A stretch of DNA of 64,000 nt from Podospora anserina (taxonomy: Eukaryota), in the NCBI GenBank assembly GCA_017654855.1, contig CM030338.1, positions 2,294,001-2,358,000 on the forward strand, given 5' to 3'. Below, one piece after another: positions 23,375 to 33,547 of this stretch; position 1 is the first letter of the stretch; each line of letters begins with the position of its first letter. The notes under the pieces were generated by a model, which had not been told where the DNA came from, searched no databases, and saw only the letters and a list, made by a program, of their open reading frames with translations. The translations under genes were made by a program, and so were the position numbers.

Positions 23375-24992
23375 ATGAGCGACCCCAACGCCAACGAGGC
23401 GGAGAAGAACGTGAGCACATCTACCTCTCTCCTTCCTTACCTTGCCCAACCCTGTCTCTCGGCCGATTCCGTTGGGGCGCGCCATTTTTCGCTTCTTCTT
23501 CTTTGGGTCTGGTTTACTGATGCCGTATCATGATGAATAGATTGAGATATGGAAGGTGAAGAAGTTGATTAAGCGCCTGGAGGCCGCTCGCGGCAATGGC
23601 ACCAGCATGATCTCCCTCATTATTCGTACGTGCTCACTGCCCTCTCTTCGCACATTCCCGTGTGCCCAGCCGGGCCTGGTGTGGCTGCCCGCCCGCCGAT
23701 GCCTTAGCCGAACTCAATGCTACCAAGCAACATGTGACTGACTTTCTTGATAGCTCCCAAGGATCAGATTTCCCGTGCGGCCAAGATGTTGGCTGAAGAA
23801 TACGTATGTCTTTTTCTGACCCTCCCTCGCACCAAGCTAACGCGTGGTGTCACAGGGTACCGCCTCCAACATCAAGTCCCGTGTCAATCGTCAGTCTGTC
23901 TTGTCGGCCATTACCTCGACCCAGCAGCGTCTCAAGCTGTACAACAAGGTCCCTCCCAATGGCCTCGTCGTCTACTGCGGTGAAATCTTGACCTCGGAAG
24001 GCAAGGAACGCAAGGTCAATATCGATTTCGAGCCCTTCAAGCCCATCAACACTTCGCTCTACCTCTGTGACAACAAGTTCCATACCGAGGCGCTTGCTGA
24101 GCTTCTCGAGTCTGATCAGAAGTTCGGTTTCATTGTCATGGACGGTAACGGAGCTCTGTTCGGCACCCTGAGTGGAAACACCCGTGACATTGTTCACAAG
24201 TTCTCGGTCGATCTTCCCAAGAAGCACGGTCGTGGTGGTCAGTCCGCTCTGCGTTTCGCCCGTCTCAGAGAGGAAAAGCGTCACAACTACGTGCGCAAGG
24301 TTGCCGAGTTGGCCGTCCAGAACTTCATCACCAACGACAAGGTCAACGTTATGGGTATTGTGCTTGCTGGTTCTGCCGATTTCAAGAACGATCTCAACGC
24401 CTCCGACATGTTCGATCAGCGTCTTGCCACCAAGGTCATCAAGGTTGTTGATGTGTCTTATGGTGGTGAGAACGGGTTCAACCAGGCCATCGAGTTGGCT
24501 TCTGAGACCCTCGGCAATGTCAAGTTCATTCAGGAGAAGAAGCTCATCGGCAAGTACTTTGAGGAAATCAGCCAGGATACCGGCCGTATCTGCTACGGTG
24601 TCGAGGATACCCTCAAGGCTTTGGAGCTCGGTGCTGTCGAGACTTTGATTGTCTTTGAGAACCTCGAGGTCACACGCTGGGTCCTCAAGGACAGCAATGG
24701 TGCCGAGATTATCATTCATTCTACTAAGCAGCAGGATGCGGCTAACCGGGACCGGTTCATGGACAAGGAGACTGGCCAGGAGATGGAAGTTGTCTCCCAG
24801 GAGTCTTTCCTCGAGTGGATCGCCGAGCACTACAAGGATTTTGGTACCACTCTGGAGTTCGTTTCGGACAGGTCGACTGAGGGCAACCAGTTCGTCAAGG
24901 GCTTTGGCGGTATCGGTGGTATCCTCCGGTACAAGGTCAACTTTGAGCAGTTGAACGAAGTGGATGACGATGATGAGTACTACGACGATTGA
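23375..24992 (+). CDS. SUP45: Eukaryotic peptide chain release factor 1 (eRF1); four exons
   Basis: [17 protein letters not shown] (NIKS motif), [18 protein letters not shown] (GGQ motif) and [11 protein letters not shown]. Confidence 0.98.
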
Positions 24993-30638: not shown

Positions 30639-30992
30639 CTCTGCGGTTCTGATAGGGCTGATACCGTGATCCGGGGTAGGAAATCTGGAGTCAACCCTAA
30701 CCCTTTGACACTCTGCAACTACCCCACGCCCAGCCCAGGGAGGGGCCTTCTTCACAATCCACCGCCGCTTCCGTTTCGCTGATGGCCAACGTCACAGTTT
30801 GCTCGCCACGGACTGCCCCTGCCCCTCACCCGTAGCGTTGTCCGCTATCGTTTAAAATGTTACTTTTGCTACCCCTCCACTCCCTCGCTCAATGACACCA
30901 CAACCACCACCACCACCACCACCACAGCTGTCTGGATAACATCACCACCTTTTCACTATCAGCATCAGTCATATCAGCAAATATCAGCAACC

Positions 30993-31785
30993 ATGAACGC
31001 GGAGGGCCCGCCCGAGTTTCTGCTCGAAGCATTCGCCGACCCTAACACGGTGCGGGATGTTGTTCGCGGTAGGCTTCCCCTATTCACCCCTGTCTGCCCC
31101 TCCATCCTCTGATTGTCCTGCTCTACAGGTATTCTGCACACCATATTCTTTATGCGTTTCTTCCAGTCCATCCAGGCTGCCACAGCCACACGCGACTGTC
31201 TCGGGATCGACCTCGCCTACGTTCCCGACTCCGCAATCGAGACGCTGATCGACCAGCGCGCAACATCACTCGCACGACAACTAGACGCTGAGCGCCCATC
31301 AGGAGGAGGTGGCCGCGGTCAGATCACTGTTCAGTTCTTTGAGAAGAAGCGTCGTAAGGGGACCTGGTTCGGGGCCGACGATGAGCTCTGCTGGGAGAGG
31401 TGGACCATCAAAATTACCGTCGCTGAACCCAAGACGGAGAGTGGTATGTTGATTTGACCTTTACTTTTTGTCCATTTTGTATCACCGAACACTAACTCAC
31501 CCTCTTCGAAATATAGACCGTGCTAAGGTCCGGAAAGCAACCGAAACCACGCTCCGCTCTACCGTCTTCAAGATCATGACCTGTGTGACCGGCCACATGG
31601 ACCACATCCCTCCCATCACCGAATCCAACGTCAACCCCTTCCCGTACCGCATTTACATTGGTAATCCTCCAAGTAATCAGCAATCACCATCATCGCAACA
31701 AAAGGCTGCCACGGCTGCTGCTGGAGTCGGAGCTAGAGTCGACGCTGTAGCGGGTGGCTGGGCAAAGAAGATGGGGATCTATTAG
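30993..31785 (+). CDS. ATG101: Autophagy-related protein 101 (HORMA, DUF1649); three exons
   Basis: VRDVVR|GILHTIFFMRFF...GQITVQFFEKKRRKGTWF (WF finger)...CWERWTI...DHIPPIT...NPFPY...GWAKKMGIY*. Confidence 0.92.
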
Positions 31786-33547
31786 GAGGATTTCCTCAGC
31801 AGTGACGCAGTCACAAAGGTGGTTGATATCGCAAAGGATATTGGTGACAAGGTTGCTGCCGCTACGAAGGAAGTTGAAAAGAAATTTGACGTTTACCTGG
31901 CACAGTTGGAGGAAGAGGCCAGGAGGGCCGAGATGGAAGAGGTGAGGAGAAATGAGGAGTGGTTGCTAGTGGCTGAGGAGAGTCGGAAGAGGAATATGGA
32001 GCCGGCTGGTCATGGTGGCGTCGAGGAAAAGAATCTACCCAAGGGCAAAAAGCACGATCACCAGCAGCCCCCCAAGAAAGATGATCAGTATGAGGAGATT
32101 CTCTAGGATGTGGACGGCCTTGGAGAGGGACCACCCGAAAGCAGCTGTTCGAGTTCGGAATCGTCTGTGTGTTCCTCAACAATACTGCTGTCCGGATCGC
32201 AGGAACTTGATCCCATAACAATGGGGCAAATCCTCCCTAAGAAAAAGGGCACAGACCCACCGGGGCGCGACATGGTCGATAGTTGGGAAGAGCAAAAGCT
32301 GCATGGTGTTTTCAGGGATCAGAAGAACTGCAAGGAATAAACGGGACAGGCGTTTGCTAATTAGAAAAGGACGGGAAACGGGCGTTTGGATTTGGTCATT
32401 ATGCTTCAACGCTACATTTGTAACACAGCACGGAAGGGAGAACAGCAGGTTCATGGTGGCTTTCGACAGTCAGAGGTGGGTATCACGCGCAACATGGCGG
32501 ATTACAGCGAGTCTAGGGATACAACTGAAGGCGCTAGTCATGGGTAGTTATAGATTTTCTTATCAGGTAGGTACTAGGTTCATCGAGATACCCCTTTTTT
32601 TCTTGACTCTTTCTCTGCGAGGAGAGGATACACAATACAATTACTTTCTAATGTTGCGTCTTGGTTCTCTATCTTGTCTCAGTGTTGACTTTGAATTATG
32701 CCTGTCAGCTGGCTGGGTTTCGGTATGCGGTTGGCAGCGGTGTGGACTGTTGTCTGATCCTTTTTACGTTTGATGTGGCAGAGAGCTTTTACAAGACTGT
32801 TCGTGACGATGGTAGGCGGTGCAGAGGGCGCTGCATTTTGTTTTGAGGGGTTTGAGAGAGGTTGAGGATGGCATTCGAGATGGTCGCGGTGATGAGCTGG
32901 ATGAACAAGAGGGAGGAGGCGGGGCAATGGGGGAGGAGGATACGGCTAACACAGATGACCCGGAGGTGAGGAAGGGTAGGGTAGGCGGGCTGGTTTTGGA
33001 TTGGTTCTCTATGTTCATTCCGGTGCTTAGAGTAGTAGGTACTTCATGTCAAAACAATTGAGCCGTTTTCTCTCGTCCAACAACTTTCAATGGCAAGAGT
33101 CTTTTCCATCAGCGGAACCCCATCCTGTTTGGGAGGAGCAGGGCGCTACCAAAGCGTGGAGTCAGAGGTTAATATAGGCAAAGATAGGGAAAGCGAACCT
33201 GAGACTGAATGGGGTGGTTGGATATCAGTTCTTATATATTTCACTCTCATGATCGATTAGGTGCCAGCTATCTTACAGACTGGACAGGTCGTCAGTTGCC
33301 AATGATCTACCTCATTCATCATCTCTTGTTCTTCAGGGGCGGAAAGAGGCACAGGGTTAGGGTTTTGGCAGTCTCTCGAAAATACCCTTGAACCCCCTGA
33401 AAAATAAAGCGCTGTTGGCCCATCAACTCCACTGATCCATTCTCAGCATCTCAACTTGAACATGTCATCACAGCGATTATCAAAGCTCTGTACAGAATGC
33501 AATCTGGTTTGTCCCTCAATCATTCACGGCCATCAGCCGCGCGATAA

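What the first reader, a model, noticed from the sequence alone, without database searches (positions are those of the whole stretch)
31783..32340. ATG101 stop TAG is followed by a hidden in-frame extension punctuated by a second TAG
Seen: TAT TAG GAG (31783-31785) is followed in the same frame by 106 sense codons (EDFLSSDAVTKVVDIAKDIGDKVAAATKEVEKKFDVYLAQLEEEARRAEMEEVRRNEEWLLVAEESRK..., helical/coiled-coil-like). Then come CTC TAG GAT (32104-32106), 77 more sense codons and TAA (32338-32340). Both internal stops are UAG in a U-A-G-G-A context, the same context as the decarboxylase site. No ATG opens the first segment. Under a simple equal-codon model, 106 stop-free codons has a probability near 0.6%. 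Two GGCGTT 3'UTR-type motifs come just after the final TAA. Inference: stepwise stop-loss A-to-I editing gives Atg101 isoforms extended by about 107 or 185 residues during sexual development.
Basis: partly seen in the sequence, partly recalled or inferred. Interest (0 to 1): 0.85.

Follow-up and report, generated by a model that had tools for sequence, protein, structure and literature searches.

The report
Hidden coding extension behind ATG101 stop
Behind the UAG stop of the autophagy gene ATG101 of a Podospora fungus lies a conserved, co-transcribed coding stretch in the same frame, which probably becomes a long protein tail when that stop is recoded, most likely by sexual-stage RNA editing that is not yet shown.

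Summary
A three-exon ATG101 gene (30993-31785, identical to P. anserina PODANS_7_8090) ends in TAG. In the same frame follow 106 codons, a second TAG, 77 codons and TAA.

This is more than a chance open frame:
- Spliced RNA contigs of 4 of 4 runs cover the whole stretch to about 32650 without a further joint.
- Codon usage is gene-like from the first codon after the TAG.
- Triangularia setosa has a 46%-identical homologue next to its own ATG101. It is open across the second TAG, where it has Y.
- The first 71 residues are predicted as one long helix. Within the Podospora species complex the helix varies as little as ATG101 itself.

The window has no ATG at the head of this frame, so the helix can be made only as an ATG101 extension after recoding of UAG. 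A-to-I stop-loss editing is the best candidate: both internal stops are UAG, both have U at -1, G at +1 and A at +3, and the lineage is known to edit. Editing itself was not shown. The contigs carry A at both sites, and the hairpin around the first TAG disappears in longer folds.

The main rival is a separate or decaying downstream gene, as annotated in T. setosa. I rate it a new member of a known kind, of moderate interest.

The parts
30993..31068 (+). ATG101 exon 1 (start ATG at 30993)
   Evidence: Only GT..AG-consistent open model. The junction is confirmed by RNA contigs in 4 of 4 runs.
31069..31128 (+). Intron 1 (60 nt, GT..AG)
   Evidence: Skipped in contigs of 4 of 4 runs (table 5).
31129..31443 (+). 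ATG101 exon 2
   Evidence: Pfam PF07855 at E 2.7e-31 on 31131-31442.
31444..31516 (+). Intron 2 (73 nt, GT..AG)
   Evidence: Skipped in contigs of 4 of 4 runs.
31517..31785 (+). ATG101 exon 3 up to and including the annotated stop
   Evidence: Pfam PF07855 at E 1.6e-06. The spliced protein is identical to PODANS_7_8090. The C-terminus GGWAKKMGIY is kept in Podospora, Triangularia, Cercophora and Apiosordaria.
31783..31785 (+). First TAG (canonical ATG101 stop); candidate edited A at 31784; context U-A-G-G-A
   Evidence: RNA contigs carry A here.
31773..31795 (+). Local hairpin: 8-bp stem and 7-nt loop AUUAGGA holding A31784
   Evidence: Predicted in all six local windows of 31 to 121 nt, with P(unpaired) 1.00. 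It is one of 11 of 917 TAG sites with a stem of 8 bp or more. In folds of 201 nt or more it is replaced by a long-range helix.
31660..31675 (+). Upstream arm that competes with the local hairpin (pairs with 31780-31795)
   Evidence: Inverted repeat I2, 16 nt, 81% complementary. Pair probabilities are 0.91-0.98 in four folds of 201-684 nt.
31786..32103 (+). Extension segment 1: 106 codons in the ATG101 frame
   Evidence: Codon log-odds +0.29. GC by codon position is .64/.29/.60. Homologous to T. setosa KAK4175975.1.
31801..31998 (+). Part coding for the predicted long helix (extension residues 6-71)
   Evidence: AlphaFold2 helix 6-71, with 10-residue block means of pLDDT 88-97 over residues 11-70. 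One variable site among 61 residues in the species complex.
32104..32106 (+). Second in-frame TAG; candidate edited A at 32105; context U-A-G-G-A
   Evidence: It is kept in all four species-complex variants and aligns with Y in T. setosa.
32107..32337 (+). Extension segment 2: 77 codons, predicted disordered, with the conserved motifs PITMGQIL and WEEQKL
   Evidence: Alignment to T. setosa. Codon log-odds is -0.35 in the first half and +0.18 in the second. Low pLDDT.
32338..32340 (+). Terminal TAA of the extended frame
32341..32656 (+). 3'UTR after the extended frame; RNA contigs end at 32571, 32647, 32656 and 32656
   Evidence: table 8. Flat and lower GC.48/.44/.45.

Best explanation
The ATG101 mRNA of this Podospora carries a second, conserved coding module in the ATG101 frame behind its UAG stop. 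The module is a helix of about 66 residues followed by a disordered tail with two short conserved motifs.

In this genome the module has no AUG of its own, and its frame is closed upstream only by the ATG101 UAG. It can therefore be made only as a C-terminal extension of Atg101, when UAG 31783-85 is read as a sense codon.

The most likely way is sexual-stage A-to-I editing by the fungal ADAT-type machinery (UAG to UIG, read as UGG = Trp). That would give Atg101 plus 107 residues, ending at the second UAG. Editing of A32105 as well would give plus 185 residues, ending at UAA.

Shown: the anatomy, co-transcription, the coding signature, homology and the conserved frame. Inferred: translation as an extension. 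Not shown: editing at either A, its stage, and any effect on autophagy.
For: 1. One spliced RNA contig per run covers 5'UTR, CDS, both TAGs and TAA, and runs to 32571-32656. This holds in 4 of 4 runs from 4 studies, with no further joint.

2. The coding signature continues straight through the stop.
- Segment 1 scores +0.29 per codon, against a training median of 0.21 and against +0.15 and +0.14 for ATG101 exons 2 and 3.
- The 26 codons directly after the TAG score +0.365, against -0.53 and -0.26 in the other frames. None of 254 non-coding 26-codon windows reaches that (maximum 0.337).

3. T. setosa KAK4175975.1 is 46% identical over extension residues 28-177, at E 9.8e-12 in a library of 1.84 billion proteins. 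All indels are in frame. It sits on the same 82,735-base contig as T. setosa ATG101 (KAK4175976.1), with the consecutive accession number.

4. Four species-complex variants keep the same 95-aa open run, ending at the same stop. Variable sites number 1 of 61 in the helix part and 6 of 34 in the tail (Fisher p = 0.008). ATG101 proper has 2 of 219.

5. AlphaFold2 predicts one helix from residue 6 to 71. It therefore starts upstream of the T. setosa ATG position.

6. There is no in-frame ATG before codon 50. No canonical in-frame intron crosses the TAG, and no such joint appears in the RNA contigs.

7. Both internal stops are UAG, the stop that one A-to-I change turns into Trp. Both have U at -1, G at +1 and A at +3. 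The final stop is UAA. These are the preferences described for fungal editing (passages of PMC11156358).

8. Stop-loss editing is common in Sordariomycetes.
- 403 genes in F. graminearum, and a hairpin-embedded TAG at DBF2 (passages of PMC13123824).
- 47 stop-loss sites among 244 coding sites in Sordaria macrospora protoperithecia (passages of PMC5381528).

9. In local folds of 31-121 nt, A31784 lies in a 7-nt loop on an 8-bp stem. Only 11 of 917 TAG sites in the window have such a stem.
Against: - No A-to-G change was seen. The contigs of 4 of 4 RNA runs carry A at both sites. Contigs keep only the major form and the tissue is unknown, so this does not count against low or stage-limited editing. 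It does leave editing unshown.
- T. setosa annotates the homologue as a stand-alone 216-aa gene. Its ATG aligns with codon 27, where the window has ACG.
- In folds of 201-684 nt the local hairpin has probability 0.00-0.03. The TAG region then pairs with 31663-31670, and P(A31784 unpaired) is about 0.54.
- The second TAG is paired in the 41-61-nt folds.
- Segment 1 as a whole varies more than ATG101 in the species complex: 7 of 95 sites against 2 of 219, p = 0.004.
- The first half of segment 2 has no codon signal, at -0.35.
- No extended ATG101 protein exists in the protein collections.
- The second TAG aligns with Y, not W, in T. setosa.
- No editing catalogue for P. anserina was found.
- No paper joins ATG101 with A-to-I editing.
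- No gene annotated as autophagy-related is among the 403 F. graminearum stop-loss genes. This was a text search, and many rows carry no annotation.
Confidence: 0.5

Rival explanations
1. A separate small gene lies downstream of ATG101, as annotated in T. setosa. In the P. anserina complex it would be either a recently disabled relic (start ATG changed to ACG, one codon changed to TAG), or translated on its own from a near-cognate start on an internal or bicistronic transcript.
For: - T. setosa KAK4175975.1 is annotated as an independent 216-aa protein starting at an ATG aligned with codon 27.
- The window has ACG there and a TAG where T. setosa has Y.
- The tail of segment 1 varies fast in the species complex, at 6 of 34 sites.
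- The first half of segment 2 lacks a codon signal.
- Contigs cannot prove a single transcript (note).
Against: - The 26 codons upstream of the T. setosa start position have a full coding signature in the ATG101 frame: +0.365, with 0 of 254 non-coding windows as high. They also belong to the predicted helix.
- The frame coincides with ATG101's and has no stop in between. Under independence I estimate this at roughly 0.1 (my estimate, not a call).
- Only 78 nt separate the ATG101 stop from the T. setosa start position. That leaves no room for a terminator and a promoter.
- The helix part is as invariant as ATG101 in the species complex, at 1 of 61 sites. This argues against a dead relic.
- The T. 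setosa model is an automatic 'hypothetical protein' call. A gene caller would produce the same model from an extension read from its first ATG.
Confidence: 0.27
2. The extension is made by translational readthrough of UAG by near-cognate tRNA, without RNA editing.
For: The anatomy is the same as for the editing reading: an in-frame conserved extension on one transcript. No A-to-G change was seen in the RNA contigs.
Against: - The stop is UAG followed by G. The readthrough-promoting contexts I know, a UGA followed by CUA and a UAG followed by CAR-type codons, are recalled and were not tested. Neither is present here.
- Two successive UAGs would compound a low efficiency.
- The lineage has a known, UAG-biased editing system.
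Confidence: 0.08
3. An unusually long 3'UTR that happens to be open in frame: no coding function, a chance observation.
For: Long open runs are common in this window: 169 of 3992 runs are 106 codons or longer. One of 184 codons lies in another frame of the same region. Neither segment has a Pfam family.
Against: - The codon log-odds of segment 1 exceeds all 36 non-coding windows.
- There is a protein-level homologue at E 9.8e-12, with the frame kept over 150 residues.
- The helix is invariant in the species complex.
Confidence: 0.04
4. An alternatively spliced terminal exon: a minor isoform removes the TAG and joins ATG101 to the downstream frame.
For: None directly. Contigs show only the major isoform.
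Against: No joint other than the two known introns appears in 4 of 4 runs. No intron candidate with a GTRNGY donor, a YAG acceptor and a length divisible by three crosses the TAG.
Confidence: 0.03

Closest known systems
Fungal A-to-I stop-loss editing, e.g. FgDBF2, FgMOB1 and FgCDC14 in Fusarium graminearum (PMC13123824; passages read)
   Same: A canonical UAG stop with U at -1. The TAG can sit in a local hairpin loop. An in-frame C-terminal extension ends at a later stop. The lineage is Sordariomycetes.
   Different: The described extensions are short (24, 11 and 27 aa), disordered and poorly conserved, and act as destabilising tails. This one is 107 or 185 aa, begins with a confidently predicted 66-residue helix, is conserved across genera, and is interrupted by a second UAG. 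Editing is not shown here.
Premature-stop-correction (restorative) editing, e.g. PUK1 with two UAGs and the 70-71 such genes of F. graminearum (PMC11156358 passages; PMC4817773 and PMC10776026 seen only in search listings)
   Same: An in-frame UAG inside conserved coding sequence must become UGG for the downstream part to be made. The second TAG at 32104 would be of this type.
   Different: Here the interrupted frame is itself behind a canonical stop. The relative has Y, not W, at that codon, so editing would not restore the relative's residue.
rfk-1 of the Neurospora Sk-2 spore killer (bioRxiv 10.1101/2020.12.30.424869; only the start of the abstract seen in the search listing)
   Same: An early UAG and a late UAA in one frame. 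Editing of the early UAG gives a longer protein with a different activity, in a member of the Sordariales.
   Different: That is a selfish killer gene, not a conserved housekeeping autophagy subunit. It has no second internal UAG.
Triangularia setosa hypothetical protein QBC36DRAFT_16104 (KAK4175975.1)
   Same: It is the only detectable homologue outside the species complex: 46% identity, the same motifs (PITMGQIL, WEEQKL, the LEEE-RRAE helix), and a position adjacent to ATG101.
   Different: It is annotated as a stand-alone gene with its own ATG. It has no stop at the position of the second TAG, and it carries several in-frame insertions.

Membership tests
ATG101 (Pfam PF07855), the upstream gene | Match to the family profile above the curated cut-off | tested here: met
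   Exon 2 scores 109 bits and exon 3 scores 28.4 bits, against a cut-off of 26.5. The spliced protein is identical to PODANS_7_8090.
Fungal A-to-I stop-loss editing site | The canonical stop is UAG (one A-to-I change gives UGG) | tested here: met
   TAG at 31783-31785.
Fungal A-to-I stop-loss editing site | Flanking preference: U at -1, A or G at +1 and +3 (PMC11156358) | tested here: met
   Both sites read U-A-G-G-A. U at -1 and G at +1 are given for any UAG, so only +3 carries information.
Fungal A-to-I stop-loss editing site | The edited A lies in a hairpin loop | tested here: inconclusive
   Site 1 lies in a 7-nt loop on an 8-bp stem in all six local folds of 31-121 nt. That hairpin has probability 0.00-0.03 in the four folds of 201-684 nt. 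Site 2 is paired in the 41-61-nt folds and unpaired (0.97-0.99) in longer ones.
Fungal A-to-I stop-loss editing site | A in DNA but G in part of the sexual-stage RNA reads | tested here: inconclusive
   Contigs of 4 of 4 RNA runs show A at both sites.
Fungal A-to-I stop-loss editing site | The organism belongs to a lineage with sexual-stage mRNA editing | tested here: inconclusive
   The proteins identify Podospora, a member of the Sordariales. Editing is documented in Sordaria, Neurospora and Fusarium. For P. anserina I found only a statement that ADAT genes are differentially expressed.
Fungal A-to-I stop-loss editing site | The mRNA extends over the whole extension | tested here: met
   Contigs run to 32571-32656 in 4 of 4 runs.
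Fungal A-to-I stop-loss editing site | The extended protein exists (junction peptide) | not testable with these tools
   No proteomics data are at hand.
Independent protein-coding gene | Its own AUG start at the head of the conserved region | tested here: not met
   No in-frame ATG before codon 50. ACG stands where T. setosa has ATG.
Independent protein-coding gene | Its own transcript start | not testable with these tools
   Contigs cannot show starts.
Programmed translational readthrough | A leaky stop context (recalled: a UGA followed by CUA, or a UAG followed by CAR-type codons) | tested here: not met
   UAG-GAG and UAG-GAU. The motif definitions are recalled, not taken from a call.

The most novel reading that the evidence does not exclude
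An editable UAG acts as a developmental switch that joins two otherwise separate coding modules. In vegetative cells Atg101 ends at GIY. In sexual tissue, editing appends a conserved long helix, and a second editable UAG decides whether a disordered tail with two conserved motifs is added as well. That would give three Atg101 isoforms from one mRNA.

The same module is annotated as a stand-alone gene in Triangularia setosa. The locus would then be a case of gene fusion or fission carried by an RNA-editable stop, and a direct link between the editing programme and the autophagy-initiation complex that fruiting-body development needs.

The single-edit isoform would end in DDQYEEIL. This resembles the recalled core consensus of Atg8-interacting motifs (acidic residues, then aromatic-x-x-aliphatic). 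It is not conserved in T. setosa.
Probability: 0.25. Interest if true: 0.75.

Novelty: new member of a known kind. Interest (0 to 1): 0.55.

Why it matters
Stop-loss editing is frequent in Sordariomycetes, but whether it is useful is disputed. PMC13123824 argues for adaptive destabilising tails. PMC13684035, of which I saw only the start of the abstract in a search listing, argues that it is not generally adaptive.

This locus offers a sharper test. The sequence behind the stop is long, structured, conserved between genera, and as invariant within the species complex as the parent protein. That is hard to explain unless it is translated.

If editing is confirmed, it would give a stage-specific isoform of a core subunit of the autophagy-initiation complex, in a tractable model fungus where autophagy is needed for sexual development (recalled knowledge). 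It would also show that automatic annotation can split such an extension into a spurious 'hypothetical protein', as may have happened in T. setosa.

Tried and rejected
- **RNA runs.** No listed holder is on record as RNA. Four runs guessed to be RNA proved spliced, and I laid them. They show no other letters at 31784 or 32105. Contigs and unknown tissue make this no test of editing.
- **Window's own genome and earlier findings.** No genome is held for this window.
- **Pfam.** Nothing on either segment.
- **ESM Atlas on segment 1.** Best score 0.76, no lead.
- **Protein searches for fused or longer forms.** None found with segment 1 against 187-2000 aa, exon 3 plus extension against 150-478 aa, or the profile against 101-378 aa. 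One search also missed P0004, so the word index is insensitive here. P. anserina's ATG101 (P0013) is not recorded from Logan, so RNA-contig proteins may not be in that collection. The absence of an edited form says little.
- **P0001.** This 172-aa protein reads through both stops as Q. Every A is replaced by V, P by F or L, and H by Y, which looks like a C-to-T-converted copy of the same locus translated with another code. I rejected it as evidence.
- **DNA of relatives.** A profile scan of metagenome contigs gave 593 pattern matches and no relative. A degenerate pattern for the ATG101 C-terminus gave 0 matches. I therefore could not read the T. setosa locus, and dN/dS could not be computed.
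- **Alternative splicing across the TAG.** No candidate.
- **The hairpin as strong evidence.** Downgraded after longer folds.
- **Literature.** No paper holds ATG101 together with A-to-I and fungi, none holds Pa_7_8090, and none holds Atg101 with Fusarium graminearum and FGSG. No P. anserina editing catalogue was found. 'Autophagy' occurs 0 times in the four supplementary tables of PMC13123824. I read part 1 of 3 of Dataset S1. The SI appendix PDF cannot be read here.
- **An in-window control.** None of 16 long ORFs is a decarboxylase, and no other TAG in a TAGGA context has 60 or more open codons on both sides. I did not pursue it.
- **Codon model.** I trained it on 14 of 22 long open frames. 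I dropped the 8 that overlapped a better frame on the other strand or had a flat GC pattern.
- **First submission.** The content is unchanged.
Full report
**The gene.** The window holds a three-exon gene on the + strand: 30993-31068, 31129-31443 and 31517-31785. Its 219-aa product matches Pfam ATG101, PF07855, at E 2.7e-31 for exon 2 and E 1.6e-06 for exon 3. It is identical to PODANS_7_8090 of Podospora anserina. Its C-terminus, GGWAKKMGIY followed by a stop, is the same in the annotated ATG101 proteins of the Podospora species complex, Triangularia setosa, T. verruculosa, Cercophora samala and Apiosordaria backusii. The stop at this position is therefore old.

**The observation.**
- TAG lies at 31783-85.
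- 106 sense codons follow in frame, at 31786-32103.
- A second TAG lies at 32104-06, then 77 codons (32107-32337), then TAA at 32338-40.
- Both TAGs sit in U-A-G-G-A.
- There is no ATG before codon 50.

Openness alone proves little. By composition, 106 open codons have a probability of 0.3-1%. Yet 169 of 3992 stop-to-stop runs in this window are that long, and a 184-codon run in another frame crosses the same region.

**Transcription.** Four runs from four studies were laid as contigs.
- All four remove exactly the two predicted introns, so they are RNA.
- Each gives one unbroken piece from the 5'UTR to 32571, 32647, 32656 and 32656.
- There are no other joints. The next contigs begin beyond 33240.

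The whole extended frame plus about 310 nt therefore lies on the ATG101 RNA contig. If ATG101 really ended at 31785, its 3'UTR would be about 870 nt. A contig cannot prove a single transcript, and it cannot show starts.

**Coding signature.** I built a codon table from 14 of the window's 22 long open frames. I dropped the 8 that overlapped a better frame or had a flat GC pattern.

| Stretch | Codon log-odds in the ATG101 frame | Other two + frames |
|---|---|---|
| Segment 1, whole | +0.29 | -0.40, -0.35 |
| First 26 codons after the TAG | +0.365 | -0.53, -0.26 |
| Segment 2, first half (Ser-rich) | -0.35 | -0.24, -0.12 |
| Segment 2, second half | +0.18 | -0.44, -0.62 |
| ATG101 exon 2 / exon 3 | +0.15 / +0.14 | -0.21, -0.18 / -0.29, -0.37 |

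- Segment 1 lies above the median of true coding windows (0.21).
- None of 36 non-coding 106-codon windows comes near +0.29 (maximum -0.03).
- None of 254 non-coding 26-codon windows reaches +0.365 (maximum 0.337).
- GC by codon position is .64/.29/.60 in segment 1, and flat (.48/.44/.45) after the TAA.
- The signal decays after the TAA.

**Relatives.** An exhaustive HMMER search of 1.84 billion representatives found four clusters.
- Two are the window's own two segments, called as bacterial-style ORFs from DNA assemblies.
- P0001 is an artefact. It looks like a C-to-T-converted copy of the same locus read with TAG as Q.
- P0004 is KAK4175975.1, a 216-aa 'hypothetical protein' of Triangularia setosa.

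P0004 is 46% identical over extension residues 28-177, at E 9.8e-12. It shares the LEEE-RRAE helix and the blocks PITMGQIL and WEEQKL, and all its indels are in frame. It is open across the second TAG, where it has Y. It begins with an ATG aligned with codon 27, where the window has ACG. It lies on the same 82,735-base contig as T. setosa ATG101 (KAK4175976.1), which has the consecutive accession number, so the two are almost certainly adjacent. Profile searches found no further relative, and Pfam and the ESM Atlas found nothing.

**Variation within the species complex.** Four variants of segment 1 exist in assemblies, and all are 95-aa runs ending at the same stop. Their variable sites are 16, 73, 75, 79, 87, 89 and 98.

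| Part | Variable sites | Comparison |
|---|---|---|
| Helix part of segment 1 | 1 of 61 | versus tail, Fisher p = 0.008 |
| Tail of segment 1 | 6 of 34 | |
| ATG101 proper | 2 of 219 | versus helix part, p = 0.52 |

The genome sets behind the two comparisons are not the same, so this is rough. It still argues that the helix is under constraint now. AlphaFold2, run on a two-sequence alignment, predicts one helix from residue 6 to 71, with 10-residue block means of pLDDT 88-97 over residues 11-70. The rest is disordered. The helix begins upstream of the T. setosa ATG position.

**How it most likely works.** The evidence has three layers.
- Shown: a conserved, constrained coding module lies in the ATG101 frame on the ATG101 RNA contig, with no AUG of its own and no spacer of non-coding character.
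- Inferred: it is translated as a C-terminal extension of Atg101 when UAG 31783-85 is recoded.
- Most likely mechanism: sexual-stage A-to-I editing.

Reasons for preferring editing:
- Both internal stops are UAG and the final one is UAA.
- Both sites have U at -1, G at +1 and A at +3, the preferences given for fungal editing (PMC11156358 passages).
- Stop-loss editing affects 403 genes in F. graminearum, where the DBF2 TAG sits in a hairpin (PMC13123824 passages).
- It affects 47 of 244 coding sites in Sordaria macrospora protoperithecia (PMC5381528 passages).

The structural evidence is ambiguous. In local folds of 31-121 nt, A31784 sits in a 7-nt loop on an 8-bp stem with P(unpaired) 1.00. 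That is one of only 11 of 917 TAG sites in the window with such a stem. In folds of 201-684 nt, a long-range helix between 31663-70 and 31785-92 replaces it, with pair probability 0.91-0.98 (0.48-0.63 for the outermost pair). A31784 is then unpaired with probability of only about 0.54. The second site is paired in the 41-61-nt folds and unpaired in longer ones.

**What is missing.** No A-to-G change was observed. The four RNA contigs carry A at both sites, but contigs keep the major form and their tissue is unknown. I found no editing catalogue for P. anserina, no paper linking ATG101 to A-to-I editing, and no autophagy-annotated gene among the F. graminearum stop-loss genes. I could not obtain the DNA of T. 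setosa or any other relative. The frame relation in T. setosa and dN/dS therefore remain open.

**Rivals.**
- *A separate or decaying downstream gene, as T. setosa annotates it (0.27).* Against it stand the coding signature and helix in the 26 codons upstream of the T. setosa start, the shared frame without a stop, the 78-nt distance, and the invariant helix.
- *Editing-independent readthrough (0.08).* It fits the anatomy but not the stop contexts I recall.
- *A chance open frame (0.04).* It is contradicted by codon usage and homology.
- *Alternative splicing (0.03).* It has no support.

**Comparison and verdict.** The locus works like known fungal stop-loss editing, with a PUK1-type internal UAG behind it. 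It shares the 'early UAG, late UAA' layout reported for rfk-1 (search listing only). It differs in that the extension is long, structured and conserved, whereas the described tails are short and disordered.

Membership in the class of edited stop-loss sites is not established, because the defining A-to-G signal could not be tested. I rate it a new member of a known kind, with interest 0.55 and confidence 0.5 in the editing-extension reading. The decisive tests are raw perithecial reads at 31784 and 32105, and the T. setosa locus.

Noticed in passing
window:32346-32388: An imperfect 11-nt direct repeat, ACAGGCGTTTG and ACGGGCGTTTG, lies 32 nt apart just after the TAA. GGCGTTTG occurs 6 times in the window against 2.14 expected, and 1 of 100 shuffles reaches 6. 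Its meaning is unknown.
   Followed up: partly
P0001 (protein from a public assembly; matches window 31711-32226): A 172-aa database protein is this locus with every Ala read as Val, Pro as Phe or Leu, His as Tyr, and both TAGs as Gln. It looks like a C-to-T-converted library, assembled and translated with an alternative code. Such entries can mimic 'readthrough' proteins in large protein collections.
   Followed up: partly
window:32219-32773 (+, another frame): A 184-codon stop-free run crosses the end of the extension and the 3'UTR, with poor codon scores. It is a reminder that long open frames arise by chance here.
   Followed up: partly
window:28714-30547 (-): The divergent upstream neighbour of ATG101 is a Peroxin-3 gene (PF04882, E 8.9e-97). 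The window also holds eRF1 (23841-24989), an Est1-like gene, methionine synthase, a forkhead factor and a Pumilio protein.
   Followed up: no
P0014 (Podospora pseudocomata ATG101, 263 aa): The annotated protein carries 44 extra N-terminal residues read from what is 5'UTR in the window (compare the open run 30783-31112). This is probably a mis-called start in that annotation.
   Followed up: no
window:32089-32103: The isoform that would end at the second TAG terminates in DDQYEEIL. This fits the recalled core consensus of Atg8-interacting motifs (acidic residues, then aromatic-x-x-aliphatic). It is kept in all four species-complex variants but not in T. setosa.
   Followed up: no
window:33558-33615: One run (X3) shows a 56-nt GT..AG joint in the transcript of the next gene downstream. 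The other three runs do not show it (table 5).
   Followed up: no
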